The translations under genes were made by a program, and so were the position numbers. A stretch of DNA of 64,000 nt, from contig NC_135818.1 of assembly GCF_964213995.1 (NCBI RefSeq), positions 69,564,001 to 69,628,000 on the forward strand, written 5' to 3'. This DNA is from Mustelus asterias (Eukaryota). Below the pieces are notes generated by a model. That model did no database searches, was not told the DNA's origin, and saw nothing but the letters and a program-made list of their open reading frames with translations. Shown here piece after piece: positions 4,197-58,162 of the stretch (position 1 is its first letter; each line of letters begins with the position of its first letter).

Positions 4197-4323
4197 GGGA
4201 TGAAATTTACCGTCCTGCCTGCCATGGGAATCGGAGTGGGTGAGGGGTGGATCATGGAAAAGTTTGTTGATCTTGGGTAGGATTTTCCAGCTTTGGGGCG
4301 AGTGAGGCTAGAAAATCCCATCA
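4197..4323 (+). mobile_element. ~125-bp MITE (GGG...CCC TIR family) inserted in satellite
   Basis: GGGATGAAATTT...AAAATCCCATCA ends; CAT duplicated at 4194-4196 and 4324-4326; homologous copies at 21565, 35030, 56389, 57593. Confidence 0.75.
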
Positions 4324-7300
4324 CATGACTGTTCTCTTAGAGCTTTTGACAGTTCCTTGACAGCTTGACAGTACTTTGAGCTTAACAATACATTTACAGC
4401 TTGACAATAACTTGACAGCTTGGCAGTTCCTTGTCAGCTTGATATCTCATTGACAGCTTGATATTTCTTGGCAGTTTTAACACCGTGAAAGTTCCTTGAA
4501 AGCTCTTCAACAGCATGACAGCTCTTTGACAACTCCATATTTTTTTGACAGTCTGACCGGTCTTTGACATCTTGACATTTCCTTGACAGTTCTCTAATAA
4601 CTTAACAATTCTTTTACAGCATAACTGTTCTTTGACAACATGACAGTGATTTGACAGCTTGATAGTTCCATGACAACACAACAACCCCTTTAACACTTTT
4701 GACAATTCCTTGACAGCTTGACAGTTGTTTGGCAGCTTTATATTTTGATGACAGTCTGACAGTTCCTTGACAGCATGCCTGTGATTTGACTGCTTGACAG
4801 TTCCTTGACAGAATGACTGTTTCTTGAATGCTTTTAACAGTGCAAGACAGCTTGACAGCTCCTTGATAGCTTGACAGTTCCCTGGCAAGAGATAGTTCCT
4901 TGACATTCACAGTTCCTTGATAGCATGATAGTTCATTCTTGGTTGGACAGTTCTTTGACAGCTTCGCAGTTTTTGACAGCTTCATAGCTCTTTGACAGAT
5001 TTGTATTTCCTTTGCTGTCTGACAGTGCTTTGACAGCTTGATAGATGTTTGACAATTTGACAATTTAACAATATGAAGGCCCCTTAAAATTTGATAGTTC
5101 CTTGACAGATTGACTACTTTGACAACTTCATATTTCATTGACAGTATGACAGTTATTTGAGATCTTGACTGTTACTTGACAGTTCCTTGACAGCTTTGAT
5201 CTCTATTACCGTCTGACAGTTTCTTGGCAGCTAGATATTTCTTTGATAGCTTGATATTTCTTTGACAGCTTAACAGTTCTGTGACAGCGTCATTTTTCCT
5301 TGGCAGTCTGACAGTGCTTTGACGGCTTGACAGTTTCTTGGTAGCTCGTTGACATTCTTAACAGTGTGAAAGTTTCTTGAAAACTTGACAGTTCCTTGAC
5401 AGCCCTTTGAGATCTTCATATTTTCTTGACTGTTCTTTGAGATTCTGACAGGTCCTTGACATTTCTTCGACAGTGTCACAGCTATTTGACAGCTTGACAG
5501 TTCCTTAAAAGTTCTTTGACAGCTTCAGAGTTCCTTGAAGGTATGGCTGTTCCTTGACAGTTCCTTGAGAGCTTCAGAGCTCTTTGACAGAGTTGACAGC
5601 TGTTTGGCAGCTTCATATTTTCCTGACAGCTTGATAATTCTTTGACAGCTTCGTATTTCCCTTGCAGTTTCATATTTCCCTGGCAGCTTCATATTTCCCT
5701 GGCAGCTTCATATTCCCTTAGTAGTTTGACCCTTTGACAGCTAGACAGTCCTGTGACAGCTTCATATTTCCTTGGCTGTCTGACAAGAGCTTTGACTACT
5801 TGACAGTTCCTTAGCAGTTAGACTGTTTCGATGTGAAAAATGTGAAAGTTTGTTCCTTGAAAGTTTGTCAGTTGCTTGACAGATTGACAGCTCCTTGTCA
5901 GCTTCATATTTTCTTGATAGTTCTTTGAGATCTTTACAGTTCTTTGACAGCTTGACAGTTCCTTGACAGATTGACGGTTTTAACAGTCTGAAAGTTCATT
6001 GAAAGCTTGACAGTTCTTTGACATCTTGACAGCTCTTTGACAGCTTAAAACTTTCTTGGCAGTCTGACTGTATTTTGACAGTTTGACAGTTCTTTGACAG
6101 CTTAATTTTTTCTTGACAGTTTGACATTGAGAATTTGAGATCTTGAAAGGTCTTTGTCAGTTCTTTGACAGCATCACACGTCCTTGACAGCATGGCTGTT
6201 CCTTGACAGCTTGACAGTTCTTTGACACATTGTCAGCTCTTTGACAGCCTGACAGTTGTTTGAGCGCTTCATATTTCCTTGGTGGTCTGACAGTTTTTTG
6301 ACAGATTGATGGTTCTTTGACAGCTTGACAGTTTCTTGCCAGTTTTGATTTCTTTGACGGTATGACAGTTCTTTGACAGCCTTACAGGCGTGTGCCAACT
6401 TCATATTTCCTGGTCAGGTTTTTGAAAGTTTGACTATTTTTACAATGCGAAGGTTCCTTAAAGGTTGACAGCTCTTTGACAGCTTCATTTTTCTTGGCAA
6501 TCTGTCAGTGCTTTGACAGTTTGACAGTTTTACCAGTGTAAAAGCTCATTGAAAACTAGACTGTTCTTTGACAGCTTGCCAGCACTTTCACAGCTTCATA
6601 TTTCCTTGACAGTGTGACAGTTCTTTGACAACTTGACAGTTCCTTGACAACTCTTCGACAACTTGAGAGGTCTTTGACGGCATCATATTTTCTTGTCAGC
6701 TTCACAGTTCTTTGAGATCTTGACAGTTCTTTGACAGTTTTATAGCTTCTTGACAGCATCACAGTGCTTTGATTGATTGACAGTTCTGTGACAGTTTCAC
6801 TTTTCTTTGGCAGTCTGACAATGCTTTGACCACTTAACAGTTCCTTGTGAGCTTTCCTTTTAATGTGAAAAGCATGTTTCTTGAAATCATGTCAGTTCTT
6901 GACAGATTGACAGCTTCATATTTTCCTGATAGTTCTTTGAGATCTTTACAGTTCTTTGACAGCTTGACAGCTTCATGTTTTCTTGACAGTATGACAGTTC
7001 TTTGAGATCTTGAAAGCTCTGTGGCAGTTCTTTTACAGATTCACAGTTCTTTGATGCCATGGCGGTTGCATGACAGCTTGACAGTTCTTTGACAACATGA
7101 CAGCTCTTTGAGAGGTTCCTATTTTCTTGGCAGACTGGCAGTTCTTTGACAGCTTGATAACTCTTTGACAGCTTAATTTTTGTTGACTGTATGATAGTTC
7201 TTTAAGATCTTGACAGTTCTTTGAGGGCTTCATATTTCCCTGACAGCACCACAATTCTTTGACAGCTTGACAGCTCTTCGACAGCTTCATATTTTCTTGG

Positions 7301-9680
7301 CAGTCTGACATTTCTTTGACAGCTTGATAGTTCTGTGACAGCTTCATGTTTCCTTAGCAATCTGACAAGTGCTTTGACTATTTGGCACTCCTTGGCAGTT
7401 TGACAGTTTTGACTGTGGAAGTTTGTTTCTTGAAAGTTTCTCAGTTTCTTGACAGATTGACAGCTCTTTGATAGCTTCATATTTCTTTGACAGTTCTTTG
7501 AGATCCTGACAGTTACTTGACAGTTCTTTGATAGCTTGACAGTTCCTTGGCAATTTGACTGTTTTAGCAGTGTGGAAGTTAATTGAAAGCTTCAGAGTTC
7601 TTTGACAGCTCTTTGACAACTTCATATTTCCTTGACAGTATGACAGTTCTTTGACAGCTTAACAGTTCCTTGACAGCTCTTTGACAACTTGACAACTCTT
7701 TGACATCTTCATATTTTTTTGACAGCTCGATTGTTTTTACTATTTGCATGTGATTAGACTGCTTGACAGTTTCCTGAGAACATGACAGTTCCTTGAACGG
7801 TTTTAACATTTGCTTGACACCTTCACAGCTCCTTGACAGCTCGACTGTTCCCTGGTAGTTTCCTAGTAGCTTGACAATTCCTGATAGCATGACAGTTCTT
7901 TGTTGCTTGACATTTCTTAGGCAACTTGACAGTTCATTGAGAGCTTCATATTTCCTTGGCAGTCTGACAGTTCTTTGACAGCTTGATAGTTTTAACAGAG
8001 TAAAAGTTCCTTGAAAGCTTGACAGTGTTTTGAGAATTTGACAGTCCCGTGACAGTTTGACAGTTCTTAGACAGCTTAACAGTTTTTTGACTACTTCATA
8101 TTTCCTTGGCAGTCTGACAGTTCTTTGACAGCTTGACAGTTTCTCGTCAGCTAGATATTTCATTGATAGCATGATTTTCCTTTGACAGATTGACAGTTCC
8201 TTGGACAGTTTTAACATTGTGAAATCTCCTTGGAAGCTTGACAGTTCTCAACAGCTTTTTGACAGTTTGACAGCTCGTGACAGTTTAATATTTTCTTGAC
8301 AGTTGAGATCACTCCTTTGAGATCACTTTCTTTGATTTTTTGATAGCTTGATAGCTCTTTGACAGCTTCAAGTTCCTTGGTGGCATAGTTGTTCTTTGAC
8401 AGCATGACAGTGATTTGACAACTTGATATATCCTTTACAGTTCTTCAACAGTTTGACAGTTTTCAACAGCTTGACACTTCTTTGAAAGCTTGACAGTTGC
8501 TTGCCAGCTTGACCATTGTTTGACAGCTACATATTTCAATGACTGTCTGATGGTTCCTTGCCAGGTTGACAAGGAACACAAGTTCTTATTTCCATGACAA
8601 CATGACGGTTTCTTGACAGCATTCCCATTATTTTCCTGCCTAATAGTTCTTTGACTATTTGACAGTTCCTTGACAGTTCTTTGACTACTTGGCAGTTATT
8701 TGACTGACAGTTCTTTTACAGCTTGAACATTCTCTGACAGCTTGATCGTTCCCTGACAGCATGACAGTTCCCTGACAGCAACACAGTTCTCTGATAGCGT
8801 AACAGTTCCCTGACATGACAGTGCCTTGACAGCTCAACAGTTTCCTGGCAGCTCGACAGTTACCTGGCAGCTTGATGGATCTTTAACAGCTTGACAGTTC
8901 TTTGGCAGTTTCATATTGCCTTGACAGGTTGACAGTTCCTTGTCAGCTTGATATTTCTTTTTCAGCTTGACAGTTCTTTGGCGGCATGACAATTCCTTGA
9001 ACACTTTTAACAGCTAATTGACCGTGCATTGGTTCCTTGACAGCTCGATTATTCCTTTATTGCTTTTGACAGCTCCTTGACAACTTGACAGTGCTTTGAC
9101 AGTTTGATAGTTTTTAACAGTGTGACAATCCTTTGCCAACTTTGCAGTTCCTTGCCAGCATGACAATTCTTTGACAGCTTCAGATCTCCATGACAGATTG
9201 ACATTTCCTTGACTGCCTGCTCGTGATTTTACTCCTTGACAGTTCCTTGACAACTTGGTAGTTCTTCAAAAGGTTGACAATTTGAACAGTGTGAAAGTTC
9301 CTTATAGGTTGACAGTTCCATGACAGTTCTTTGTCAGCTTGGCAACACTTCGACATTTTCATATTTCCTTGTTGGTATGAGAGCTCTTTGACTTCTTGAC
9401 AGTTTCATGATAACTTCATATTTTCTTGACAGCTTGACAGGTGCGTTGACATCTTGACAGTTCTTTGATAACTTGGCAGCTCTTTGACAGCCTCATGTCT
9501 TCTTGACAGCTTGACAGTTCTTTGACAGCTTGATGGTTCCTTGTCAGCTAGATATTTCTTTGATGGCTTGACAGTTCTTTGACAGCTTGATAGTTTTTTG
9601 ACATATTAACAGTTTGACGGTTTTAATAGTGTGAATGGCAAGCTTGACAGTTCCTTGACAGTTCTTTGACAACAGGAGAT

Positions 9681-10025
9681 GGTGGCACGGTAGCATAGTG
9701 GTTAGCACTGCTGCTTCACAGCTCCAGGGACCTAGGTTCGATTCCTGACTTGGGTCACTGTTTGTGTGGAGTTTGCACATTCTCCCCGTGCCTGCGTGGG
9801 TTTCCTCCGGGTGCTCCGGTTTCCTCCCACAGTCCAAAGATGTGTGGGTTAGGTTGATTGGCCATGCTAAAATTGCCCCTTAGTATCCTGAGATGCGTAG
9901 GTTAGAGGGATTAGCGGGTGAATATGTCGGGATAAGGGGGTAAGGCCTGGGTGGGATTGTGATCGGTGCAGACTCGATGGGCCAAATGGCCTCTTTCTGC
10001 ACTGTAGGGTTTCTATGATTCTATA
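9681..10025 (+). mobile_element. HE1/V-SINE-type SINE (CR1-like tail) inserted in satellite
   Basis: A box TAGCATAGTGG, B box GGTTCGATTCC, V-domain, CTATGATTCTA tail. Confidence 0.92.
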
Positions 10026-10956
10026 ATGACAGCTCTTTGGCAGCTTTATAATTTTTCTGATAGCTTGGCAGTTCTCTGACATTTTGTTACTTCTTTGACA
10101 GCTTCATATTCCCTTGGCAATCAGACAGTACTTTGACAATTTGATAGTTCTTTGACAGTTTGACAGTTTTAACAGTGTGAAAGTTCCTTGAAAGCTTTAG
10201 TTATTTGACAGTTCTTACACATTTTTACAGCTCTTCGACAGCTTAATATTTTCATGACAGTATGAGAATTCTTTGAGATTTTGACTGTTCTTTGTCAGTT
10301 GCTTAACAGTTTTAACAGTGTGAGAGTTCCTTGAAAGCGTCAGAGTTCCTTGACAATTCTTTGACAATTTGTCAGCTGTTTGACAGCTTAATATTTTCTT
10401 GACAGTGTGACAATTTAATCTTCACAGTTTTTTGGCAGTTATTTGACAGCTTCACAGTTCCTTGACAATGATTTCACAGCTTGATATTTCTTTTACAGTT
10501 CTTTGACAGGCTTTAATAGTGTGACAGTTCCTTGAATGCTTTCAACAGTTCCGTGACAGCACGATGGTTCCAAACAGCTCAGTGATTTCTTCAATGCTTT
10601 TGACAGCAGTTTGACAACTTGACAGTTATTTAACAGCTTGATATCTTTTTGACAGCTTTGGATTTCCATGACAGACTGATATTTCCTTGACAGCATGTCC
10701 ATGATTTGACTGCTTGACAGTTCCTTATCTACTTGACAGTTCCTTATCTACTTGACAGTTCCTTATCTACTTGACAGTTCCTTGATTACAAGACTGTTCC
10801 TTGACAGCATGACAGTTCCTTGAATGCTTTTAACAGTTCCCTGACAGTATGATAGTTTCCTGACAGCTCGACAATACCCTAATAGCTTGATGGTTCCTTG
10901 ACAGCTCTTTGACAGTGTGACGGTTCTTTAACAGCTCGCTATTTCTTTGACAGCTT

Positions 10957-11262
10957 AAAGTTTATTTATTTATTACTCACTATTAGGCTTACATTGACAC
11001 TGCAATGAAGTTACTGTGAAAATTCTCTAGTCGCCACATTCTGGCACCTGTTCGGGTACACTGAGGGAGAATTTAGCATTATGAATCCACCTAATGTGCA
11101 CATCTTTGGACTGTGGGAGGAAACTGGAGCACCTGGAGGAAACCCATGCAGACACAGGGAGAATGTGTAGACTTCACACAGACAGTGACCCAAGCCAGGA
11201 ATCAAACCCCAGTCCCTGGCACTGTGAGGGAGCAGTGCTACCCACTGTGCCACTGTACCGCC
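10957..11262 (-). mobile_element. V-SINE, second tail type (AATAAATAAACTT end)
   Basis: Reverse-strand tRNA-like head and V-domain; tail TCACAGTAACTTCATTGCAGTG...AATAAATAAACTT. Confidence 0.9.
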
Positions 11263-19980: not shown

Positions 19981-20832
19981 CTTTTAAAAAAGTTTTTAAA
20001 TGTCTGGTGTATATTTTAGAAGTTTCTGGGTAAGCCTAGACAAAAGAATGGTCCTAAATCAGAAAGCTAGCACCGCTGCCTGTGTGACTCATGCTGTGTG
20101 ATAAACCAGAAGAAAACATATTAAGGATATTATGTAGTCTTGTATAGAATGTACAGCACACAAACAAGTCATTCAATCCCAGCTGATTTGTGTCAGTGTT
20201 TATGCTCCATTTGTAGCTCTTCCCATCCTTCTTTATCTAATTCTAGCAGCTTAGCCATCTATTCCTTTCGCCCTCACGTGTTTGTCTCACTCCTCCTTAA
20301 ATCCATCCATGACTATTTACTTCAACTACTCCTCATGGTGGTGAATTCCACTTTCTAACCACTCTTCAGATAACAAAGTATCTCCTGAATTCCCTATTGA
20401 ATATATTAATGACTGCCTTATATTTAGTGTTCCCCTAAAGCGCTCTAACATGCAACAATTCATCCTCCTTTTTTCCATAGAAAAGCACTTCACCATGTTC
20501 AATCTTGCCTGACCAGTAGAGCCTCTCATTTCTGGTATCACATTTGTATGTGTTTTTTTGCCCCATCTCCAGTGCCTCTAGATACCTTTTTAGGATATAG
20601 AGATGAGAACTGTGCATGCTACTTTGAAGAGATGTCTAACTAAGATTCCATTAACCAAGTTTAACATAACTTTTCAACTCTATCGCGCTAGAAATGAACT
20701 GATTTTCTTTGTTTGCCCTTTTTGAGACATAAAATGCACACCATTGCTTTCCGACTTAGGAAAACAATTTTGTTTCAAATATTTTCTCTTGACCAGCTAT
20801 CTTTCATGTTAGAGTCTGCTTTTTTTTTTCAG

Positions 20833-21012
20833 CTATAACTGCTGTAAGGACAAATGTTGCTAACCTAAGTGATGCTGCCATGTGGAAAATCAAGCGAGCT
20901 CGCTTTGCACGAAACCGACAGAGGAGTGTGCGTTCCCTTAGGGACAGCGTGAAAGGCCCGGGAGAGTCAAAGAGGACACTTTCGCTTCCAGAGACTCTAA
21001 GCACCAAACTGC
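20833..21012 (+). CDS. UNC79: UNC79 exon
   Basis: poly-T CAG acceptor, GTAAG donor; ITAVRTNVANLSDAAMWKIKRARFARNRQRSVRSLRDSVKGPGESKRTLSLPETLSTKL; phase 1 to 1. Confidence 0.97.
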
Positions 21013-21564
21013 GTAAGTGCCTTTGGTTTACCAATTTCACTTCTGTTGGTGAATTTTGTTGGCTAGAAACAATAAGAACTGTTATTTCAGAGCAGCTGTG
21101 TTCTGTTCAGTATGATCACAACACTAATTATTTCATGTAGAGATATAAAAATGGGGCTGGAAAATTCAGCTTTGTATTTCTGGAGGTCTGAGTGCTATTG
21201 ATGCCAGTTTAGGGGAAAGATATTGCCCATGCTGCACACAAACACTTTTGGGGTAGCCCATGCATCACGTAATGTTTTTGAGGTTACTAGCACGGGTGTT
21301 ATGTGTGTGTGTGTGCGATGGAAGTTTACAGAGTAGTCAGACCATGAGTCACTCAGCATATAATGCTCATTTCACACCAAACCTGCCATTTTCCACCCTG
21401 AAGCTCCAGCTAACACCCTCTTTTTAGCAAGTACAGCTGAAGAGTGGTCATGAGGAATCTCCCCCTGCACCTCCAGCCACCAGTGCTATTCAAAGGCATC
21501 ATCATCCAACTTGCAGATTAGTTGCTCATTCATTTTTTGCTGGTTCTTTCTGAGCTATGGTACT

Positions 21565-21675
21565 GGGTGGGATTTTACGTCTTCGCTCGTCCCGAACCCG
21601 TAAAATCCCGCCTGAGATCAGTGAACCTTTCCATGTTCCGTTCCTCGCCCGCTCCGCTTCCAGGGTGGACGGGGT
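21565..21675 (-). mobile_element. ~125-bp MITE family copy (partial)
   Basis: GGGTGGGATTTTAC...AAAATCCCGCCTGAGATCA...CCTTTCCATG; reverse complement of 4197-4323. Confidence 0.65.
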
Positions 21676-22138
21676 TGTGGGTGGTATTTTTCCATGCCTG
21701 GCCAGCGGATTCAATAGTGGGTGGGAAGGGGTGACTGCAGTGGGAATCCAAAAATCAGTTTTGCGCTGGCATGAATTTCCAACGGGGTCTTCCACTGGTG
21801 TCTGGCATGCGAATCAGGAATCCTGCAGGAGGCCGGCATGGAATCAATCTGCATCCCACCCATGGGATGTTCCCTGACAGTGTATGACAATAAGAATAAT
21901 TTGTATCCAGTTTCTCAGTTGATGAACAAATACAAAAATAACCACCCAAATTCCCACCATTGCTGAGTGCCAATGACCAATAATTATAATTACAAATATA
22001 GACCTAATATTAAACCTAATTATCCTTTCAAGAATCTAACTGAGACAGGCAAATGGCAACAACCTGTTGAGAGAACTCTGTGTTCTGAAAATTACAGGAT
22101 CATATAATGTATTCTTACTTTGTTTTCAATTTTTGTAG

Positions 22139-22207
22139 CTTTGCGACTCACTAGGCATGAACAGTCAGCTCCAACTCTTGGTGCAATGATGGAGCAAGCT
22201 ATGCATG
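22139..22207 (+). CDS. UNC79: UNC79 69-nt symmetric (probably cassette) exon
   Basis: TTTTTGTAG acceptor, GTAAAT donor; PLRLTRHEQSAPTLGAMMEQAMH; phase 1 to 1 and a multiple of 3; resembles a recalled insert in some mammalian isoforms (PMRLTRHEQSAPALG). Confidence 0.85.
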
Positions 22208-22333
22208 GTAAATATGATAAATTTTTTTTGTATTTATTGTTGCTTAGAATCCAATTTCTAGGTAGCCACAGCTGTTGTTTCAGTAACACACTTTTCCAAA
22301 TGTATCATCAAATATTAAGGGCGGTGGCACAGT

Positions 22334-22640
22334 TTTTTTAAAATTCCAATTCAATCAAATCAAGTCCAATTCAGAGTCTCAACAAGTCGAGACATTCCCG
22401 ATCCAAGCTGACAAGACAGGGCTCTTACCTCCTGTTTTGGGCTTGATCTACATGATCCAAGCTGATTGGAGTAGGCATAGCTCCTCCTCCAAGGCTTGAT
22501 CTCATTTGCATCTTAGCCAAAAGGCCGAGGTGCCGCTTTTAAAAATTGCTTCAAATTAAGCTTAAATGTAACCTAATGACTTCAACCAAGCACAGCATGT
22601 TGATACTATACTTGATCTTAACCAGAAGGCCGAGAAGCAT
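22334..22640 (-). mobile_element. U2 snRNA-headed retroposed element (SINEU/Keno-like)
   Basis: Minus strand begins with U2 nt ~1-40 (22602-22640); exact U2 nt 8-27 again at 22510-22529; two hairpin units; A7 tail; AGT duplicated at junctions. Confidence 0.8.
22602..22640 (-). pseudogene. U2 snRNA 5' fragment (nt ~1-40)
   Basis: Minus strand ATGCTTCTCGGCCTTCTGGTTAAGATCAAGTATAGTATC vs vertebrate U2 ATCGCTTCTCGGCCTTTTGGCTAAGATCAAGTGTAGTATC (3 substitutions, 1 gap). Confidence 0.9.
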
Positions 22641-23264
22641 AGTGGTTAGCACTGCTGCCTCACAGGGCCATGGACATAAGTTCAATTCCGGCCTCAGGTC
22701 ACTGTCTGTGTGGAGTTTGCACGTTCTCCCCGTGTCTGCGTGAGTTTCCTCTGGGTGCTCCGGTTTCCTCCCACAGTCCAAAGATGTGCAAGTTAGGTTG
22801 ATTGGCCATGCTAAATTGACCCTAATGTCAGGGTAAATGTGTGTGGTTACAGGAATAGGGCCTGGGTGGGATTGTGGTCGGTGCAGACTCGATGGGCCAA
22901 ATGGTTTCTTTCTGTACTGTAGGGATTCAATGATATTCTATGATTAATTCAAATGCTGCTTTTAGGCAACAGGGTTGTGGGTCTCAGATTCTGACCTTCC
23001 CAGTGATTCTAATGATAAAACATTTGCTCATATTTGATTTGAAATCATTGACTTTTTTCTTTTAAATTTACACAGGGAGGCAATTTGTCCATATTGTTTA
23101 TGCTCTTACCTCTTTAATTTCCTTTTAAATAATATTCTTGTCCTGCTTCAGGCTTATGAAAAGGCATTCCATATGAAAGATTAAAAATTACATTTACTTA
23201 AAGTTACAAAGCCGGTTCTCAAAGTGGACTGAGCAAACCCAAATGCATTCCTTGCTTACTCCAA

Positions 23265-23408
23265 AAACCAAATTCAGATTTTGGTTGAATCCAATTTATG
23301 GTCCCCACAAGAGAGACAAACAAGATCCAAGCTAATCAGATAAGGCATTGCAGCCCATCTTGGGCTTGATCTGACACTTGTTCTTAGCGAAAAGACATGA
23401 AAAGCTAT
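23265..23408 (-). mobile_element. Older, shorter relative of the U2-headed element
   Basis: ACACTTGTTCTTAGCGAAAAGACATGAAAAGCTAT is a degenerate antisense U2 5' end; next to one GATCCAAGCT...GGCTTGATCT unit and a CCAATT...ACAAG.GAGAC tail. Confidence 0.6.
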
Positions 23409-23910
23409 TCTGTCAAATTCTTTCTAGCGACAATCCTGAGATTATGGCCGTTTTTGGAGGGAGAGTCAGCCTTAAAGTGAGGCTATCTGTTTGCCAGTGC
23501 ATGATTGAGCATTTGGTGATGAGTAATGGGGAATCGGTTTTAAATTACTAGACCATAGAAGTGGCTGCTACATCGTAAGTTATTCTTTCTTTACACTGAT
23601 CACAATTGTCTGGCACACAGCTCATGTGGAAACTCTTGAGACTTGGATGATAGCTGCTGGAAGGCTGCTGGCAAATGCACCAGCTGAACAAACCCTATAT
23701 CTCCAAATGGTTGAACCACTGTTTGAGATAGGGTATGACGTGTGGTCATGCTTTGGTCAGAGAATGGTGGAACTGCAGTCATATTGTATTGGTCAACATG
23801 ATGGCCTTAAGAAGCTTATAGTATTGCTGTCTACCTATCGACAAATTAAATCTGTGTCTCCCAGTGTCCCATGCCCAACTGCTGGTTAAGCCTTTTTGGG
23901 AGAGAGTTAT

Positions 23911-24915
23911 GGGGCGGTATTTTACAACTGCATTGCGCCTGTTCTCGCCACGATGCGGTCGTAAAGTGGGGCGTAAAGTGAGCAGCACAATTGGCGCTGG
24001 CTTTCGTGACCGGCGCCATTTTACGACTTCAGGATTTCAGGTGCGCTCAGCCACTCGCTGGAAATGGGCGAGAGGCTGAATAATTTATGTAAAATTATGG
24101 AAATGCTAATCGGATGTTTTACATCTGATTAGTGAGCCCGGCGCTCAATCGTCCGGGCTCGTCTGCCTTTATGGCCTTGCCGGGAGAGGTTCTCTGCGGC
24201 GAGGAGTAGACATGCTCCCCATGAATGGAGAGCAGTGGTGTTGGCCTTACCGGTAGAACCCCGGAGTCCATTAAGGCCCCAGGGAGGCCGAGGGCAAGAC
24301 GGGGGTGCCCCTTGGACACTGCCACCCTGGCATCTTGGCACTGCCATGGGGCAGTGGCAGGGGATGGGTCCAGTGCCAGGGCATGCGGCCAGTGCCAGGG
24401 GGCGGGGATATTAGAGGGGTGGGGGGAGGGGGCCCGCTGCCACTCTGCACAGTTGGTGGGGAAGGGAGGGAGGGGGGGCCTGCTGCCACTCTGCAGCAAT
24501 CAGTGGGGGGGAGGGCAGCGGGGCTGCGATTGCTGGGGGATTGCTGGCAATCGGTCTGGGCAGCAGGGCGGCGGAGGGGGGCTGCATCTCGGTCCAAGGG
24601 CTTACATGAGTTAGGAGGTCCCATATGGGAAAATAGTGGGAAGTTAAGAGCAGGATTTCCTGACCCTCTCACTTCCTCACCCCTACCTCCCCCTCCTCCC
24701 ACGGCATGTTTTCTGGTGGCAGAAGTGGCTCACCATTGGCCACGAGCGGGCTCTTCCGCCAATGTCTATGGTGTGTTTTGCATCGCTCACCCGTCCCATC
24801 TTTAGGAAACCCACCGCGGAGGGTGGGAGTAGGGGGACGAAGGATGGGGGGCAGGTGGTTGGGTGGGTGGGCCACCTTCAGCGCGACCAGTGGAAAGGGC
24901 CAGAAAATCCCACCC
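23911..24915. mobile_element. ~1-kb GC-rich non-autonomous DNA transposon (GGG...CCC TIRs)
   Basis: GGGGCGGTATTTT start, AAAATCCCACCC end; internal G-rich repeats; CpG-rich relative to flanks. Confidence 0.65.
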
Positions 24916-25306
24916 AAAGTTTCGGTTGTTGCCAAGCTGTGCCTCAGTTCCATAGATTTAGGTAAGTAGATCATTCAGGCTGCTGGCTTTAGTAAATCCT
25001 GGAAGATATAAACTGGAGGTGCTGCCAGCTATGGGAGACCAAATTATGGAACATATTTTGTATGAATAAGACTAACCATCCAGCTTCATGCAATGTAAAG
25101 CAGCTAAAATTAAATACCTATTTTGTGATATTATTGTATTAATATATCATTCGTTAACATCTTGTTTAAACTAAACTTAAACTAAATGTTCCCTTTAAGT
25201 GTCCTGACTATTTATATTATTTTACTTCTGGATGAATTAGCAGAGAGAGAATGTAAAACAAAAAGCCAGGCGAACTACTGAACATTTGATCTTGTGCTGC
25301 ATTCAG

Positions 25307-25593
25307 GTCAACATTCTTCAGACGATGATGCAATTATTAAGGATCCTTTACCAGAGGATGCTGGGATTGATCATCAAACAGTCCATCAACTAATCACAGT
25401 TCTAATGAAATTCATGGCAAAGGATAAAAGCAGCGCTGAAGCTGATATCAGCAGTGCCAAAGCCTTCAACACAGTAAAACGCCATCTGTATGTATTACTT
25501 GGCTATGACCAGCAGGAGGGGTGTTTCATGATTGCCCCTCAGAAAATGCGAACGTCCACTTGTTTCAATGCCTTTATTGCTGGGATAGCGCAG
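25307..25593 (+). CDS. UNC79: UNC79 exon
   Basis: TTCAG acceptor, GTAAAG donor; QHSSDDDAIIKDPLPEDAGIDHQTVHQLITVLMKFMAKD...FNAFIAGIAQ; phase 1 to 0. Confidence 0.97.
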
Positions 25594-25720
25594 GTAAAGT
25601 ATGCCGTTATTAAGGTTTTTATAATTGGAGTACAAAAGTTCAAGCTGCTTTAGGCCTTTACATTAAGTTGTTCCATACGCATGTCAAACTGATGCGACCC
25701 ATTCTGGAATCTATAAAACT

Positions 25721-25833: not shown

Positions 25834-26762
25834 ATTGTAAAATTTGGCTATTTTTTCCTCCTTTAATTGCACCACAAATGACAAAAACAGGAAATGAGAC
25901 AACAGGCAAAGCAATTGCCCTCAGGCCTCTGGCAATGCCACACTTCCTGTCGACCCACTTGCTGCCAAAACTGGGAATTTATTGCCAAAGGAACCGTGAC
26001 AGGCCGCCAGAGAACCTGCTGACTGATCTCTCAATGGGAAAATTCCCAATCAGCGACACCCCAAAGGCCCGAGAACTCAACCTAGTTACTTAAATCAGGC
26101 TGGCCTCAGCTCCAATGCAGGGTAAGCCCAGTGCACATCAAGCGGCAGGCATTTGCAAGCAGTCCAGCTTCCACTCTGAATTTACCCAGGTGGGCAAACA
26201 AGGCTGGTGTTTTGAAAGTGCAGTTGTGTGGATTTACACAATTGCTGCTTTTAGAGGAGCTACGTTACTGAACTAGCTTAACTTGTCTTTATATGGTACG
26301 TGCTTATGTAACTCTAGCTGGTTGCTAAATATTTAATGGATTGGAACATTTGACCAGAAAAGCATTTCTTCCTCTGATGGTTCAAGTGCTTCAATATTGC
26401 AGCTGGCTGGTGAACTGAACTGTCCACCAGATGGCACTCTTCAACAAAGCAAGAAATAGACTTTTGACAATCACTCCCTGATTTGTTTCTCTCAAGGCAT
26501 TAACTCAATTTTAAACTTAACAGAAATAATTGTCTTATCAATATTTATTAAACTTGTAGTAATTATTTTTGCTTAAAGTTAAATTAAAGTTAAAATTATC
26601 TTAGTAATGAGCCTTTCTCCTGCTTTGATAGAGGATGCTGTATGACAGTATCTCTAAAATGTTTACGTTTTTTACCTAAATACATGCAGGTAGACACATC
26701 ATTGTGATAAAGAATATAATTTTCCGCTATTCCTGTATTCCCAAAACTATCTATAAAGAATT

Positions 26763-30675: not shown

Positions 30676-30838
30676 TTAAAAAAAGCAAAATACTGCGGAT
30701 GCTGGAAATCTGAAAGAAAAACAGAAAACGTTGGATCAAAGTCAGCAGATCTGGCAGCATCTGTGGAGTGCAAAAACAGATTCTGCAGAAGGGTCATATA
30801 GACTCGAAACGTTAACTGTGTTTTTCTCTCCACAGATG
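30676..30838. mobile_element. Penelope-derived short insertion (same family as 2481-2691)
   Basis: AAAAGCAAAATACTGCGGATGCTGGAAATCTGAAA start; 12-bp TSD CTATTCATCTGT at 30664-30675 and 30839-30850; mutated hammerhead core at 30783-30816. Confidence 0.75.
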
Positions 30839-33883: not shown

Positions 33884-35024
33884 ATAGAACATAGAACAGT
33901 ACAGCACAGTACAGGCCCTTTGGCCCACGATGTTTTGCCGAACCTTTTCCGAAACCAAGATCAAGCTATCCCACTCCCTATCATTCTAGTGTGCTCCATG
34001 TGCCTATCCAATAACCGCTTGAAAGTTCCTAAAGTGTCCAACTCCACTATCACAGCAGGCAGTCCATTCCACACCCCAACCACTCTGAGTAAAGAACCTA
34101 CCTCGTACATCCCTCCTATATCTTCCACCACGAACCTTATAGTTATGCCCCTAGTAACAGCTACATCCACCCGAGGGAATAGTCTCTGAACATCCACTCT
34201 ATCTATCCCCCTCATCATCTTATAAACCTCTATTAAGTCGCTTCTCAATCTCCTCCGCTCTAAAGAGAAAAGCCCTAGCTCCCTCAACCTTTCCTCATAA
34301 GACCTACCCTCCAAACCAGGCAGCATCCTGGTAAATCTCCTTTGCACTCTTTCCAGCGCTTCCACATCCTCCTTATAGTGAGGTGACCAGAACTGCACAC
34401 ACTATTCCAAATGTGGTCTCACCAAGGTCCTGTACAGTTGCAGCATAACCCCACAGCTCTTAAACTCAAACCCCCTGTTCATAAACGCTAACACACGATA
34501 GGCCTTCTTCACGGCTCTATCCACTTGAGTGGCAACCTTCAGAGATCTGTGGATATGAACCCCAAGATCCCTCTGTTCCTCCACATTCCTCAGAACCCTA
34601 CCTTTGACCCTATAATCCGCATTCAAATTTGTCCTACCAAAGTGAATCACCTCGCACTTATCAGGGTTAAACGCCATCTGCCATTTTTCGGCCCAGCTCT
34701 GCATCCTATCTATGTCTCTTTGCAGCCTACAACAGTCCTCCACCTCATCCACTACTCCACCAATCTTGGTGTCATCCGCAAATTTACTGACCCACCCTTC
34801 AACCCCCTCCTCCAAGCCATTTATAAAAATCACAAATAGCAGAGGACCCAGCACTGATCCTTGTGGTACACCGTTGGTAACTGGTCTCCAGTCTGAAAAT
34901 TTTCCATCCACCACCACCCTCTGTCTTCTATGAGATAGCCAGTTACTTATCCAATCGGCCAAATTTCCCTCTATCCCACACCTCCTTACTTTCTTCATGA
35001 GCCGACCATGGGGGACCTTATCAA
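33884..35024 (-). mobile_element. Young 5'-truncated CR1 (HER1-like) LINE
   Basis: RT motifs FDKVPH, GVPQGSVLGPLLF, SKFADDTK, LVRPHLE*.QFWSP; (ATAGAAC)2 tail; ACCAC duplicated at 33879-33883 and 35025-35029. Confidence 0.95.
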
Positions 35025-35029
35025 ACCAC

Positions 35030-35150
35030 GGGTGGGAGTTTACAGCCTCGCTCATCCCACAAACGCCACCCCAGGTCAACGGACCTTTCCATTGTCCGCC
35101 CCTCGCCTGCTCCAATTCCCGTGGCGGGCAGGATGGTAAAATTCCAGCCC
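35030..35150 (-). mobile_element. ~125-bp MITE family copy
   Basis: GGGTGGGAGTTTAC...GGTAAAATTCCAGCCC; homologous to 4197-4323. Confidence 0.75.
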
Positions 35151-36040
35151 AGAAATTGTTGTTGTTTTCACAGAGTAATGATGGTGGACCCTAAAAATTT
35201 TGCCATCATCTTAACCACAAAATCTGGGCCTGTGATTCTCACTTTTCAGTCTTCGTATGTTCTTTATTATGAGAGTTAATTCTTCTCCTAGGTTTCTCAA
35301 TTTGAAGAAAGAACTCATCTGCAAGGCACCAGTCAATTTTCAAAACGCTCTAGAATGTTTAAATAAATAACTGAGGAAATTAGATGTCAATAATTTCAGG
35401 ATTGCCACAAATTAAGGGATTGCATCAGTAGCATTGACCAGCATCTTGCATAATCCCAGTGTTTAAAAATGATGAGCAGACGTGAAGTATAAACTTGTAG
35501 TGGAGAGAAGGCAAAGAGTGCTCTATGCAATGCTAACTCATGAAAATGATACTGGTTATAAGGGCACCTATTATGGTTTTAGAAGTAGATTTTGCCTCAC
35601 AAATCTAGGCAGTTTTTGGAAGAAATGGCAAAATCAAAGGACATCTGCTAATATCTAATACAGTTGGATTTTCAGAAAGCTGTCAAGTTGATGGTTCTTC
35701 TAAGGCGTTACGTGGGCTTACTGGCCAACTTGTCACTTTGGTAGAAAATTAGTTTGACAACAAAGGAGAAATTTATAAATGCATACATTACTATGGGAAG
35801 AGGAAGTTGCGGAGTCGAGTTTCTCAAACATTTGAGCTGACCATTCTTTTCACACAGCATAAATAACATGGAGAGGAAGGACCTTCCGTCATCCTATACT
35901 CTTCTTTCAAGTTTACAATGTGAGCAAGTAGTTTCTGCAATGAAAAAGAAAAGGGAAAAAAAATACGTTTATTTTAAAATATAGGCATTATATCACTTAT
36001 TAGATAAATATTGCACTAACATTCTTTATTTTACTTCTAG

Positions 36041-36974: not shown

Positions 36975-38989
36975 GTGAGCCTAGTCAAAGAGAAAAAGGA
37001 AGCATTTGTCAAAGCTAGGAAGCTGGGAACACACGAAGCAAGTGTGGAATACAAGGAAAGTAGAAAGGAACTTGAGCAAGGAGTAAGGAGGGCTAAAAGG
37101 GGTCATGAAAAAGCAATGGCCAGCAGGATTAAGGAAAATCCCAAGGCTTTTTATACATATATAAAGAGCAAGAGGGTAGCCAGGAGAGGGTTGGCCCACT
37201 CAAGGACAAGGGAGGGGAAATCTATGCGTGGAGCCAGAGGAAATGGGCAAGGTATTAAATGAGTATTTTGCGTCAGTATTCACCAAAGAGAAGGACTTGG
37301 TGGATGATGAGTCTGGGAAAGGGTGTGTAGATAGTTTGAGATCATGTTGAGGTCAAAAAGGAGGAGGTATTAGGGTTCTTGAGAAACATTAAGGTAGACA
37401 AGTCCCCAGGGTCTGATGGGATATACCCCAGAATACTGAGAGAGGCAAGGGAGGGAATTGCTGCGGCCTGAGAGAAATCTTTGTATTCTCACTGGCTGCA
37501 GGGGAGATCCCAGAGGATTGGAGAATATCCAATGTTGCTCCTTTGTTTAAGGAGGGTAGCAAAAATAATCCAGGTAATTACAGGCCAGTGAGCCTTACAT
37601 CAGTGGTAGGGAAATTATTGGAGAGGATTCTTCGAGACAGGATTTATTCCCACTTGGAAATAAGTGGACGTATTAGTGAGAAGCAACATGGTTTTGTGAA
37701 GGGAAGGTCGTGTCTCACGAACTTGATCAAGTTTTTCGAGGAAGTGACGAAGATGATTGATGAGGGTAGGGCAGTGGATGTTGTCTACATGGACTTCAGG
37801 CCTTTGACAAGGTCCCTCACGGCAGACTGGTGCAGAAGGTGAAGTTGCATGGGATCAGAGGTGAGCTGGCAAGGTGGATACAAAACTGGCTCGGTCATAG
37901 AAGACAGAGGGTAGCAGTGGAAGGGTGCGTTTCTGAATGGAGGGCTGTGATAAGTGGCGTTCCTCATGGATCAATGCTGGGACCTTTGCTGTTTGTAATA
38001 TACATATAAATGACTTGGAGGAAAATGTAACTGGTTTGATTAGTAAGTTTGCGGACGACACAAAGGTTGGTGGATTTGCGGATAGCGATGAGGACCATCA
38101 GAGGATATAGCAGGATATAGATCGGTTGGAGACTTGGGTGGAGAGATGGCAGATGGAGTTTAATCCAGACAAATGTAAGGTGATGCATTTTGGAAGGCTT
38201 AATACAGATAGGAAATATACAGTAAATGGCAGAATCCTTAAGAATATTGATAGGCAAAGGGATCTGGGTGGACAGGTACAAAGGTCACTGAAAGTGGCAA
38301 TGCAGGTGGAGAAGGTAGTCAAGAAGGCATATGGCATGCTTGCCTTCATCGGCCGGGGCATTGAGTTTAAAAATTGGCAAGTCATGTTGCAGCTTTATAG
38401 AACCTTAGTTAGGCCGCACTTGGAATATAGTGTTCAATTCTGGTCGCCACATTACCAGAAGGAGATGGAGGCTTTGGAGAGCGTACAGAAAAGATTTACC
38501 AGGATGTTGCCTGGTATGGAGGGTATTAGCTATGAGGAGAGGTTGGAGAAACTTGGTTTGTTCTCACTGGAATGACAGAGGTTGAGGGGCGACCTGATAG
38601 AAGCCTACAAGATTATGAGAGGCATGGACAGAGTGGATAGTCAGAAGCTTTTTCCCAGGGTGGAAGAGTCAATTAGTAGGGGACACAGGTTTAAGGTGCG
38701 AGGGGCAAGGTTTAAAGGAGATGTACGAGGCAGATTTTTTACACAGAGTGTAGTGGGTGCCTGGAACTCGTTGCCGGGGGAGGTAGTGGAAGCGGATATG
38801 GTAGTGACTTTTAAGGGGCGTCTTGACAAATACATGAATAGGATGGGAATAGAGGGATATGGTCCCCGGAAGGGTAAGGGGTTTTAGTTAAGTCGGGCAG
38901 CATGGTCGGTGCAGGCTTGGAGGGCCGAAGGGCCTGTTCCTGTGCTGTAATTTTCTTCGTTCTTTGTTCTTTTGTTCTTTGTTCTTTGA
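36975..38989 (+). mobile_element. 5'-truncated CR1 (HER1-like) LINE, frameshifted
   Basis: PGNYRPVSLTSVVGKLLE, QHGFVKGRSCLTNL, KFADDTK, RPHLEYSVQFWSP; (TTCTTTG)n tail. Confidence 0.95.
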
Positions 38990-40088: not shown

Positions 40089-40441
40089 TATGTTTCTGTT
40101 TAAATTCTAAAGCTTGGAATGGTAATTCTTAATATTGTTGCTTCACTGGTGGATAAAGAATGAATCAGTTCATGCATATCTATTTGTACCTTCAATTGGG
40201 ATGAATGCAAATTCATAAGTAAATGAAATTAAATTTTAAATACCCGTGGATAGCACCCACAATATTTTAGTTTAGCACCCAACAGCTCTGTCAATGTTAT
40301 TTAATGTGGTTAAAATGTTGGTATGATTTGTACATTTCATCATTTTTTAAATTAATGATGTATAATTGTAAATTTTATTGGATTTAATTGAAATTGCATG
40401 TGTGAATTCCTTTTGTAACCTTATTGCTTTTTTTCCTTTAG

Positions 40442-41647
40442 GCTCAGAGATAGAGCTGTCAGAATACAGAGATTCCAGCCTTTTGCCAGACAGTATAATG
40501 CGCTGTGGTACATCTCCACAATTGCAGGAGAGTGTTGCTCAAAAGAAAAGAATGTACACAAATAAGCAGCAGTCACTTGACATCGGAAATGCAGATTCTG
40601 TTCTATACTCTTTAGATGAGCATCGCAGAAAGTCGTGTCAGGATAGATGTGAATCTGCAAGACACCCAAGCTTTCCTTCCTGCTATCCTCAGATGGAAAG
40701 CATGTATAGAAGACCAGAGCTGGATTTGTCTGTCAGTGCAGAAATTGGAGAACTTCAGGAAAGGTCCTCATCTGCGGAAAACTCTCAAGAAGGGAAGCGT
40801 CCGGTAATACCAGAAGTCAGACTCAGTTGCACAGAAACATTTGAGACTAAACTTGAATCTCCTGAGAAACATCTTTCCTTCCATAAAGGAGAAAGCAATC
40901 TGATTGACTTATCTTCTGACTCATCATCTGCCCATGAGAAGCAGTCAATTCTGTCAAGTTCTGATAGTGATTCACTGGTTTTTGTGCCTCTCCCTCCTCT
41001 CAGAATCGTAGAGAGTGATGAGGAATGCGAAATGCAGAATACCCCTAACAACAAGCCAAATGGGAAAGCTAACTCAATTACTCACAATACTGCATCACTT
41101 AGCTTGAATGTCACACCAGTTGTAAAAGTCAATGTTGAGGATTGCTCAAAATGTCTGGATTTTGGTAATACATCTTTGCTAGATACTGAGAACATTTTGT
41201 CAATAGCTCTCGCAGATGGAAAAGACTTTGAAAATCTCACGCCACAGAAAAATTCCAAGTGTTCTGGTTGTGAGAGCCCACTAACTCTTAAACAGAAACG
41301 GGAAAACCTCAAGAAGTCATCTGCTGTCCTGGACATATCGCAGGATGACACCGATGAGTTTCATAGAGATGACATTAAATTGGAAAGCCCATTACCAAGC
41401 CCCATGGTTAAAACGGTATATCTCAAACTTCCTACGGAAATTGAACAGAATGAAAAGTCAAACACAGAGCTGTCTACAGATAAGGATACTGACCAAAAAG
41501 ATGAAAGTGGTGAAGAAACAGAATTCAAAATCCAGATTGTTCCACGGCAGAAGAAGCAAAGGAAGATTGCTGTTAGTGCTATTCAGAGGGAATACCTTGA
41601 CATCTCCTTCAATATTTTGGACAGAATTGGAGATCAGAGAGACACTG
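40442..41647 (+). CDS. UNC79: UNC79 large (1206-nt) exon, low-complexity/disordered region
   Basis: TTTAG acceptor, GTAAG donor; inside 428-aa ORF 40378-41664; motifs SLDIGNADS, RPVIPEVRL, SDSDSLVF.PLPPLRIVESDEE, EFKIQIVPRQKKQRKIAVSAIQREYLDISFNIL. Confidence 0.96.
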
Positions 41648-57715: not shown

Positions 57716-58162
57716 AAAATGGGTCAGATTGCCTCAATCTGTGCCACGTTTCTGTGTTTCCTTGGGACCCTGGGCACCACTACCATGGCACCAAGTGTGG
57801 ATATTACACCCAAATTCAAGAACTGTCCCTTGACCTAGATGCTGTTTACTGTGATTTAGTGTAGTTAATACATTTTAATTTGCTGGTGAAGGAAAGAACA
57901 AGAATACTTTTAACCTGCTAACTTGGAAATAAATTCAGGAGAAACTGGTAACCTGAATTCTTGGAGGCTGTTTTGGCATGTTATGCGTGGCTACTATCGA
58001 CACATGCATATGTAATTTATAAAAAGAAACAAACCATTGTAGAGAATAAGCACACACTCATAATGCAGCTGTTTGTCACAGACATCTCCCACCAAAAGAG
58101 CCTCTTATACAGAATTCTTACACATTTCAAAAATGTTATTTTCTTGTCCATTCAAAAGAAAT

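What the first reader, a model, noticed from the sequence alone, without database searches (positions are those of the whole stretch)
22334..22640. U2 snRNA-headed retroposon: candidate new shark SINEU / Keno-derived non-autonomous family
Seen: on the minus strand the element reads U2 nt ~1-40, ~70 nt of unrelated sequence, an exact second copy of U2 nt 8-27, two ~50-nt hairpin units, a short GTCTC/GAGAC stem-loop and A7. It splits the A box of an HE1-type SINE, with AGT (or GCACAGT/GCATAGT) duplicated at the junctions, so it moved by retrotransposition into non-U2 DNA after the SINE inserted. Established: Keno (Tx1 clade) and Utopia non-LTR elements insert near U2 nt ~37-40, and snRNA-headed SINEs (SINEU) are described in crocodilians. 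Inference: this is a dispersed copy of a U2-promoter-driven U2/retroelement chimera that behaves as a SINE. I do not recall such a family being described from sharks.
Basis: partly seen in the sequence, partly recalled or inferred. Interest (0 to 1): 0.82.

Follow-up and report, generated by a model that had tools for sequence, protein, structure and literature searches.

The report
Remodelled U2 RNA-derived jumping element
Two short inserts in an intron of a probable shark gene are copies of the splicing RNA U2 that were refolded so that the part which reads introns is locked away, pointing to a mobile family, or a new small RNA, not so far reported from these fishes.

Summary
Element A (22334-22640, minus) splits a tRNA-SINE and has an A6-7 tail and a 3- or 7-nt target duplication. 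The body is mostly not foreign retroelement DNA. Behind each U2 head the sequence stays colinear with U2 nt 39-75 (A 24 of 34 aligned positions, B 22 of 35, two shared deletions), then reaches a U-run at the Sm position. The new element is a ~50-nt hairpin: U2 nt 24-31 pairs with remodelled nt 52-61 (8 bp, invariant in 3 of 3 units). It encloses a 9-bp stem with double-sided changes at 5 of 9 pairs, and a ~20-nt insert replaces the branch-site-recognition sequence. A is a dimer of two such monomers. Best reading: a non-autonomous retroposon family built from disarmed U2, working like crocodilian SINEU (nearest SINEU-3) but of separate origin (0.58). Main rival: retrocopies of a functional divergent U2-type RNA (0.22). 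A Keno-derived body is not supported. Copy number, source gene, partner LINE and Repbase/Dfam status could not be checked. Both copies lie antisense in a UNC79 intron.

The parts
22318..22333 (+). 5' stub of the host tRNA-derived SINE (A-box region); ends with the left copy of the target duplication (22331-22333, or 22327-22333)
   Evidence: alignment with 10 other window copies
22637..22945 (+). Rest of the host tRNA-SINE; begins with the right copy of the duplication (22641-22643, or 22637-22643 with one mismatch). V-SINE/HE1 type is recalled, not tested
   Evidence: 162 of 181 positions equal the majority of the other 10 copies
22334..22640 (-). Element A, whole insertion: monomer A1 followed by monomer A2
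22602..22638 (-). A1 head: U2 nt 4-40, 3 substitutions (nt 17, 21, 33)
   Evidence: Rfam; by eye
22579..22601 (-). A1 fold-back: 6-nt insert after U2 nt 40, then a U2 nt 40-47-like octamer and further bases. 22598-22584 pairs with U2 nt 25-39 (15 bp, includes the branch-site-recognition bases); 22583-22579 pairs with nt 4-8
   Evidence: z -3.82, 1 of 200 shuffles
22537..22578 (-). A1 3' part: weak stem-loop (not significant), U5 run at 22545-22541, A4 at 22540-22537; read as the end of monomer A1
   Evidence: 133 of 200 shuffles fold as well; monomer boundary inferred
22503..22536 (-). A2 head: U2 nt 8-27 exact (22529-22510); altered flanks extend stem-loop I by 3 bp
22454..22502 (-). Hairpin unit 1: U2 nt 24-31, ~20-nt insert, remodelled U2 nt 39-61
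22400..22449 (-). Hairpin unit 2, a diverged internal duplicate of unit 1; closest to U2 nt 39-61
   Evidence: (0 of 3000 shuffles, 14 of 2976 tiles)
22340..22399 (-). A2 tail: U2 nt 62-75-like stretch with the GTCTC/GAGAC stem (22393-22376, stem-loop IIb position), linker, U4 run at the Sm position (22343-22340)
   Evidence: tail matches B's tail, 0 of 5000 shuffles
22334..22339 (-). A6 tail; a seventh A overlaps the target duplication
23374..23408 (-). Element B head: decayed U2 nt 1-35; the first 12 nt may instead be target sequence
23324..23372 (-). Element B hairpin unit (third unit)
23263..23323 (-). Element B tail homologous to the A2 tail, ending in a U5 run at the Sm position (23267-23263)
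23170..23262 (-). Probable continuation of B into the U2 3' domain (stem-loop III-like to about 23222); 3' end uncertain, candidate 14-nt duplication at 23410-23397 and 23169-23156
   Evidence: Rfam alignment, weak: no U2 hit for this part alone; duplication p about 0.03-0.10
21018..25302 (+). Interval between two mapped UNC79 exons (20823-21017 and about 25303-25596) that holds both elements, antisense to the gene; a small unmapped exon in it is not excluded

Best explanation
A and B are dispersed, decaying copies of a short non-autonomous retroposon family that arose from a U2 snRNA gene and is made almost wholly of remodelled U2. SHOWN: shared architecture (head, hairpin, IIb-position stem, U-run); colinearity with U2 nt 39-75; shared derived changes; covariation in the inner stem; insertion of A into a SINE with A-tail and target duplication. 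INFERRED: (1) In the ancestor U2 nt ~24/26-36 was duplicated and the branch-site-recognition bases (nt 32-38) of the second copy were replaced by a ~20-nt insert complementary to nt 39-48. Point changes at nt 32, 53, 57 and loss of nt 58 then turned a latent complementarity between nt 25-32 and 52-61 into a stem, at the cost of stem-loop IIa. Monomer A1 reaches the same end differently, by folding back over nt 25-39. (2) Locking or removing the bases that U2 uses to pair with U6 and the branch site would keep the RNA from poisoning splicing and would destroy the Keno/Utopia target site; master elements were selected for this fold long enough for the inner stems to diverge while staying paired. 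(3) Source copies are transcribed from U2 +1, most simply from a U2-type upstream promoter. Transcripts ending at the Sm-position U-run gain a short A-tail and are inserted in trans by a poly(A)-primed non-LTR element (L1/Tx1 type). (4) Template switching or tandem insertion joined A1 to A2, and an internal duplication doubled the hairpin.
For: Second locus with the same head-hairpin-tail order: nhmmer E 1.1e-6 to 3.5e-5 between A2 and B segments; tails alone 0 of 5000 shuffles, and 1 of 2098 tiles; flanks unrelated. U2 nt 39-58 motif aligns at the same register in all 3 units: 11, 0 and 275 of 3000 shuffles. By eye against U2 nt 39-75: A 24 of 34 aligned positions (26 against an alligator U2 flank in the same figure), 7 of 10 mismatches transitions; B 22 of 35; both lack nt 58 and 71. 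Conservative upper bounds p 0.023 and 0.13, transitions p 0.02. Outer stem 8 of 8 pairs invariant; inner stem 5 of 9 pairs changed on both sides; covariation score reached by 7 of 500 shuffles, slid controls far lower; RNAalifold finds the same structure unprompted. Inner stems fold better than shuffles, combined p 0.001. Units 1 and 2 differ far more than the host SINE has decayed (about 10%), so they diverged before insertion. SINEU families show the same habits: repeated 5' addition of U2 pieces, partial duplication, dimers, poly(A), and in SINEU-3 a U2 portion that stops at nt 32 (PMC4494074).
Against: Only 2 loci and 3 units; a model of the unit finds no fourth in 64 kb, and no eukaryotic genome could be searched. 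The 2 loci are 620 nt apart, unlikely (about 3%, own arithmetic) for random dispersal and unexplained. B has no A-tail and its duplication is marginal (295 of 3000 random sites, 85 of 3000 shuffles). B's U2 3' domain is weak: whole-B Rfam E 2.2, no U2 hit for its 3' parts alone, fold not significant (61 of 200). The U2 nt 39-58 motif does not score in A1 (1701 of 3000) and is not significant in B's unit. Covariation rests on 3 related sequences, and the structure was read from them; the tool warns such alignments can beat shuffles. The U2 nt 39-75 alignment is by eye with hand-placed gaps. No promoter, master copy or partner LINE was found; the RT fragments in the window look CR1-like (recalled).
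Confidence: 0.58

Rival explanations
1. A and B are retrocopies or pseudogenes of a functional host gene family: divergent U2-type Sm-class small RNAs that keep the U2 5' stem-loop, Sm site and 3' domain but carry a hairpin module in place of the branch-site-recognition region. The copies are dead ends and the sources are real genes.
For: An invariant 8-bp stem with a bulged G beside a freely covarying stem is what a protein-bound functional RNA looks like. All three heads begin at or near U2 +1. U-runs persist at the Sm position in 3 of 3 monomers. B seems to extend into the U2 3' domain: its U2 hit disappears when that part is cut off. Precedent for a lineage-restricted Sm-class snRNA with covarying stems and a truncated pseudogene: Drosophila LU (PMC4053861, passages). 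Small-RNA retrocopies can mimic SINEs (PMC7245038, passage).
Against: Three different monomer designs, a dimer and an internal duplication in two loci suit a selfish, recombining family better than a stable gene. A1 and A2 stop at the U-run and lack the 3' stem-loops. B's stem-loop I is broken and no exact octamer lies upstream of it. No expression data.
Confidence: 0.22
2. One reading: a chimera of a U2 5' fragment with sequence from a Keno/Utopia-type element, i.e. a non-autonomous Keno derivative. In its weakest form the ~20-nt inserts are scars of Keno/Utopia activity in a U2 gene.
For: Keno and Utopia share a 3' junction at U2 nt 39 (PMC4640811; PMC6136364). The insert in each unit ends just before nt 39/40 and the 6-nt insert of A1 sits at nt 40. 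Tx1-Mar, the proposed SINEU mobiliser, clusters with Keno.
Against: Most of the body is U2 itself. Neither element's 3' end is followed by U2 nt 39 onward; the target motif has 1 two-mismatch match in the window, far away, against 0.61 expected. The inserts have no A-rich end and are explained as near-inverted copies of U2 nt 39-47. A sits in a tRNA-SINE, not in a U2 gene.
Confidence: 0.12
3. Ordinary U2 pseudogenes that were rearranged and duplicated locally and then decayed neutrally; the hairpins are by-products of U2's own self-complementarity.
For: The two loci are adjacent and no third exists in the window. U2 nt 29-36 and 40-47 are nearly complementary already, which accounts for 8 of the 15 pairs in A1. 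Truncated U2 retrocopies are common in mammals (PMC5322556, passages).
Against: Unrelated flanks; clean insertion of A with tail and duplication; 5 of 9 inner pairs changed on both sides while the outer stem never changes; heads 92-100% U2-like beside bodies about 65-70% U2-like in the same insertion, which uniform decay cannot give.
Confidence: 0.08

Closest known systems
SINEU-3 (crocodilians; PMC4494074)
   Same: Short retroposon made of U2 itself; U2 5' portion stops at nt 32, just before the branch-site-recognition bases; found in tandem; no internal promoter.
   Different: SINEU-3 deletes ~50 nt; here nt 39-75 are kept and refolded into a new covarying hairpin. No Mariner-N4 target. Host is not a crocodilian (UNC79 exon only about 50% identical to birds). 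Sequence homology to SINEU-3 beyond U2 could not be tested.
SINEU-1 / SINEU-2 (crocodilians; PMC4494074)
   Same: Repeated addition of U2-derived pieces at the 5' end, partial duplications, a dimeric subfamily, A-tail, short or variable target duplications.
   Different: SINEU-1 has a non-snRNA 3' body and both families carry U1 pieces; none is seen here (no U1 hit).
Keno (Tx1 clade) and Utopia (PMC4640811, PMC6136364)
   Same: The internal inserts end at their common target position, U2 nt 38/39.
   Different: They are autonomous, protein-coding and inserted into U2 genes with U2 nt 39 onward as 3' flank; none of this holds here.
U2 retropseudogenes, tailless or chimeric (PMC5322556; discussed in PMC4494074)
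   Same: Start at U2 +1, 3'-truncated, target duplication with junction microhomology.
   Different: They are neutral copies of normal U2; these share a derived, structure-conserving remodelling between loci.
Drosophila LU snRNA (PMC4053861)
   Same: Model for the rival reading: lineage-restricted Sm-class RNA with covarying stems and a truncated pseudogene.
   Different: LU has a shown promoter, TMG cap, Sm binding and synteny; none was testable here, and no homology is implied.

Membership tests
SINEU | 5' head derived from U1 or U2 snRNA | tested here: met
   Rfam U2 E 9.4e-6; three U2 heads
SINEU | Short (<500 bp), non-coding | tested here: met
   A is 307 nt, B about 190-240 nt; no ORF of 110 aa or more lies within either (the one frame touching A runs mostly through the host SINE and was not scanned)
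SINEU | 3' poly(A) tail | tested here: inconclusive
   A ends in A6-7 and A1 in A4; B has none
SINEU | Retrotransposition marks (target duplication or truncation) | tested here: met
   A splits a SINE head with a 3- or 7-nt duplication; B marginal
SINEU | Copies share one derived structure rather than being independent chimeras | tested here: met
   2 of 2 loci share the hairpin, tail and deletions at U2 nt 58 and 71; local evidence only
SINEU | Hundreds to thousands of dispersed copies | not testable with these tools
   No eukaryotic genome collection; 3 units in 64 kb
SINEU-3 | Internal ~50-nt deletion after U2 nt 32 | tested here: not met
   U2 nt 39-75 is retained in diverged form
SINEU-1 | Shared non-snRNA 3' body | not testable with these tools
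   Consensus sequences are in figures and Repbase; the paper's supplements could not be read
SINEU (crocodilian families) | Insertion preference for Mariner-N4_AMi, mobilisation by Tx1-Mar | tested here: inconclusive
   A sits in a tRNA-SINE; B's flanks match nothing in the window but were not compared with a repeat library; partner LINE untestable
Keno / Utopia | 3' end joined to U2 nt 39 onward inside a U2 gene | tested here: not met
   A's 3' flank is SINE; target motif absent near either 3' end. Only the internal inserts abut nt 39
Keno / Utopia | ORF with endonuclease and reverse transcriptase | tested here: not met
   No ORF; RT hits in the window lie at 34.4-37.8 kb
Keno / Utopia | Sequence shared with Keno/Utopia 5' or 3' ends | not testable with these tools
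   No chondrichthyan Keno/Utopia sequence available; only parts 1 and 8 of 8 of the Utopia junction figure were read, with no match noticed by eye
Functional U2 snRNA gene | Accessible branch-site-recognition sequence and intact stem-loop IIa | tested here: not met
   Replaced in the units, paired away in A1; Rfam scores 39.4 and 17.1 bits against a cut-off of 46
Functional Sm-class snRNA gene | Upstream PSE and DSE, 3' box | tested here: inconclusive
   A's upstream is SINE; no exact octamer upstream of B; PSE and 3' box not formally scanned; the source locus is unknown
Functional Sm-class snRNA gene | Sm site, capped transcript, Sm binding | not testable with these tools
   U4-U5 runs at the expected position; no expression data
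HE1 V-SINE (host element) | tRNA head, V domain, HER1-like tail, in sharks and rays | not tested
   tRNA-like head supported (one copy called as tRNA); family name recalled; HE1 listed for sharks and rays in PMC3747384 (table passage)

The most novel reading that the evidence does not exclude
Cartilaginous fishes carry a functional family of U2-derived small RNAs: a U2 scaffold (5' stem-loop, Sm site, 3' domain) in which the branch-site-reading region has been replaced by an exchangeable hairpin module with an invariant, probably protein-bound base. A and B are retrocopies of different members. This would be a new snRNP class evolved from U2 in vertebrates, or a selfish RNA that uses the U2 promoter and Sm pathway while hiding its splicing-active bases.
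Probability: 0.22. Interest if true: 0.86.

Novelty: new variant of a known kind. Interest (0 to 1): 0.62.

Why it matters
SINEU was reported only from crocodilians (PMC4494074: none detected outside them), and how such elements are transcribed is stated there as open. A second, independent origin in a distant vertebrate lineage would show that snRNA-to-retroposon conversion recurs. It would also suggest a rule: both SINEU-3 and this family neutralise U2's branch-site region, one by deletion and the other by refolding. The hairpin gives a specific handle for counting copies, finding the master locus and reading its promoter, which would test the transcription question directly. If the sources are conserved genes, this is a new U2-derived small RNA class. 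The two copies themselves are probably inert intronic fossils.

Tried and rejected
Rfam at gathering threshold: 0 hits in 64 kb; at E-value threshold over the window, A is the only U2 hit among 14 matches. B's 3' parts alone gave no U2 hit, nor did B without them. No ribozyme, snoRNA or miRNA family fits the hairpin at E up to 10. Search for further copies: unit model with filters off, 7 matches, of which 3 are the training units and 4 are noise at E 1.5-3.8; nhmmer found none. One scan of bacterial and archaeal genomes for the hairpin signature gave 1 match, in a 375-kb bacterial contig without U2 head or tail: chance, and no information on sharks. Pfam on 30 of 48 long frames: 2 RT hits, no endonuclease or Tx1-specific domain. 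Segmental duplication of A and B rejected. A 7-nt repeat as B's duplication rejected because it falls inside the A-homologous tail. The octamer inside A (22504-22511) rejected as meaningful: 9 in the window against 5.63 expected. The 7-mer between A1 and A2 resembles the SINE 5' end but is better read as altered U2 nt 1-7, since it extends stem-loop I. Pol III transcription ending at the U-run was considered: A1 has lost the U4 in stem-loop I but A2 keeps it, so unsupported. Tailing of snRNAs truncated at the Sm site was looked up: PMC7293007 passages point to uridylation, and PMC5322556 found no oligoadenylated intermediates in human, so the origin of the A-tail is unexplained. Unchecked: Repbase, Dfam, any eukaryotic genome, the metagenome and viral contig collections, the SINEU paper's supplements and bioRxiv supplements; a full computed alignment to a vertebrate U2.

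Full report
SETTING. The window is part of a vertebrate UNC79 gene on the plus strand. The frame at 40372-41661 matches UNC79 at 47-53% over most of its length in birds, mammals, frogs and bowfin and 40-43% in most teleosts (only proteins of 754-2150 aa were searched, so full-length shark proteins may have been missed). tblastn with 5 of the 33 hits maps exons across the window, including 20823-21017 and about 25303-25596. The finding lies between them, antisense. Roughly equal distance to all bony vertebrates fits a cartilaginous fish and excludes a crocodilian; 'shark' itself is inferred. The host SINE family has at least 11 copies here; the name HE1 is recalled.

OBSERVATION. Element A, 22640-22334, begins with U2 nt 4-40 (34 of 37 by eye against the U2 line in PMC4640811 S1 Fig; Rfam E 9.4e-6). 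It holds an exact U2 nt 8-27, two hairpin units, a small stem-loop and an A-run. It interrupts the head of a tRNA-SINE. The duplication is 3 nt if the first four bases are U2 nt 1-5 with one deletion, or 7 nt with one substitution and a 2-nt microhomology. The same substitution occurs in 1 of 7 other copies listed, which mildly favours 7 nt. The host copy equals the majority of 10 others at 162 of 181 positions, so A is younger than about 10% divergence.

A SECOND MEMBER. BLAST of A against the window gave two alignments of 72-74% at 23290-23394, and Rfam independently placed a weak U2 match at 23408-23176 (17.1 bits, E 2.2). This element B has one head, one hairpin unit and a tail that aligns with A's (tails alone 0 of 5000 shuffles, 1 of 2098 tiles). 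Flanks of A and B share nothing. The unit signature occurs 3 times against 0.10 expected, and a covariance model finds no fourth unit. B has no A-tail; a 14-nt repeat with 2 mismatches could be its duplication but is marginal.

THE BODY IS U2. The 20-nt Keno target motif printed in PMC6136364 (U2 nt 39-58) aligns at the same register in all three units: scores reached by 11, 0 and 275 of 3000 shuffles, and by 66, 14 and 257 of 2976 window tiles. It does not score in the stretch after A's first head (1701 of 3000). By eye against nt 39-75, 22420-22387 matches 24 of 34 aligned positions with 3 gaps, 7 of 10 mismatches being transitions; 23345-23311 matches 22 of 35 with 2 gaps. Conservative bounds are p 0.023 and 0.13. 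Both lack nt 58 and 71 and share changes at nt 39, 53, 56, 57 and 64. The GTCTC/GAGAC stem therefore sits where stem-loop IIb begins, and the U-run that follows is where the Rfam model places the Sm site (domain names and numbering recalled). B seems to continue into stem-loop III: the U2 hit is lost when that part is removed, but the part alone gives none and its fold is not significant. I rate this extension as probable, not shown.

THE HAIRPIN. Each unit is U2 nt 24-31, a ~20-nt insert in place of nt 32-38, and remodelled nt 39-61. The outer stem (nt 25-32 with 52-61, one bulged G) is invariant, 8 of 8 pairs in 3 units. The inner stem has double-sided changes at 5 of 9 pairs, one pair taking three different forms; 92% of cells pair; the covariation score is reached by 7 of 500 shuffles and falls to 0.12 or less when slid. 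RNAalifold returns the same structure, and inner stems beat shuffles in 53, 376 and 76 of 5000 (combined p 0.001). With three related sequences this is suggestive, not proof. Units 1 and 2 lie in one insertion yet differ far beyond 10%, so the changes accumulated in source elements.

A IS A DIMER. After the first head come a 6-nt insert and a 7-of-8 match to U2 nt 40-47. These and the next bases pair with nt 25-39 over 15 bp (0 of 5000 shuffles) and with nt 4-8 (z -3.82). U2's own near-complementarity of nt 29-36 and 40-47 supplies 8 of the 15 pairs, so the shuffle test overstates the surprise. This segment ends in U5-A4, as the whole element ends in U4-A6. I read A as monomer A1 (22640-22537) plus monomer A2 (22536-22334) with an internally doubled unit. 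A1 folds better than 299 of 300 shuffles, A2 than 279, B than 227.

MECHANISM. Best reading (0.58): a non-autonomous retroposon family built from U2, in which the bases that pair with U6 and the branch site were locked away. This would avoid interference with splicing and remove the Keno/Utopia target. Transcription from a U2-type promoter, tailing at the U-run, mobilisation by an L1/Tx1-type element and template switching are all inferred, partly by analogy with SINEU. Rivals: retrocopies of a functional U2-derived RNA (0.22), Keno chimera or Keno scar (0.12), neutral local pseudogenes (0.08). Unexplained: why the only two loci in 64 kb are 620 nt apart, and why A1 and A2 end at the U-run while B runs on.

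COMPARISON AND NOVELTY. It works like SINEU and meets the general features tested, but fails the SINEU-3 deletion and is not filed under any crocodilian family. It is not Keno or Utopia. Ten searches listed no paper whose title or abstract opening reports a U2-derived retroposon or U2 variant in cartilaginous fishes; several listings were partial (for example 30 of 2,268). PMC4494074 states that no SINEU was found outside crocodilians, and a paper on chondrichthyan SINEs has 0 occurrences of 'snRNA'. The library lacks most subscription papers and Repbase Reports, and Repbase and Dfam could not be searched, so an existing name is quite possible.

WHAT I READ. PMC4494074: parts 1-4 of 5 (all main text; supplements unavailable). 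PMC4640811: passages, section 6, S1 Fig parts 1 and 8 of 8. Passages only: PMC6136364, PMC5499810, PMC4053861, PMC5786205, PMC5322556, PMC6887750, PMC7245038, PMC3747384, PMC7293007. PMC10886601: term search with 0 occurrences (66). All others: search listings only.

VERDICT. New variant of a known kind; interest 0.62.

Noticed in passing
   Followed up: yes
window 1-64000: The window is part of UNC79 (plus strand); 13 or more exons mapped, including a large one at about 40430-41646.
   Followed up: partly
window 3732-10960: About 7 kb of degenerate satellite with 11/19/30/38-nt periods inside a UNC79 intron, interrupted by a tRNA-SINE at about 9670-10027.
   Followed up: no
window 9681, 15279, 22641, 26757, 46367 versus 10951, 27819, 39782, 41776, 58168, 59721: Two tRNA-SINE subfamilies share about 185 nt of head and body but have unrelated tails: one ends in short TCTATGA-type repeats, the other in AATAAA-rich sequence. 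This suggests different partner LINEs.
   Followed up: no
window 2480-2700; related piece at 30681-30838: Long imperfect inverted repeat, MITE-like, that draws miRNA-model hits.
   Followed up: partly
window 34081-35190 (minus) and 37417-38750 (plus): Two reverse-transcriptase fragments in opposite orientation, 69% identical over 949 nt; CR1-like by recalled motifs.
   Followed up: partly
window 22504-22511 (minus): Perfect octamer motif inside the A2 head; 9 such sites in the window against 5.63 expected, so probably chance.
   Followed up: yes
window 22637-22643 and 23397-23410: At both 5' junctions the target side resembles the U2 5' end (2-nt overlap in A, possibly 12 nt in B), as if pairing with the target completed the insertion.
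   Followed up: partly
window 58158-58233: ARAGORN's tRNA-Cys call is the head of a tRNA-SINE copy, not a separate gene.
   Followed up: yes
window 26211-26257: Short perfect-looking hairpin that matches a miRNA model weakly (25.9 bits against a cut-off of 72).
   Followed up: no
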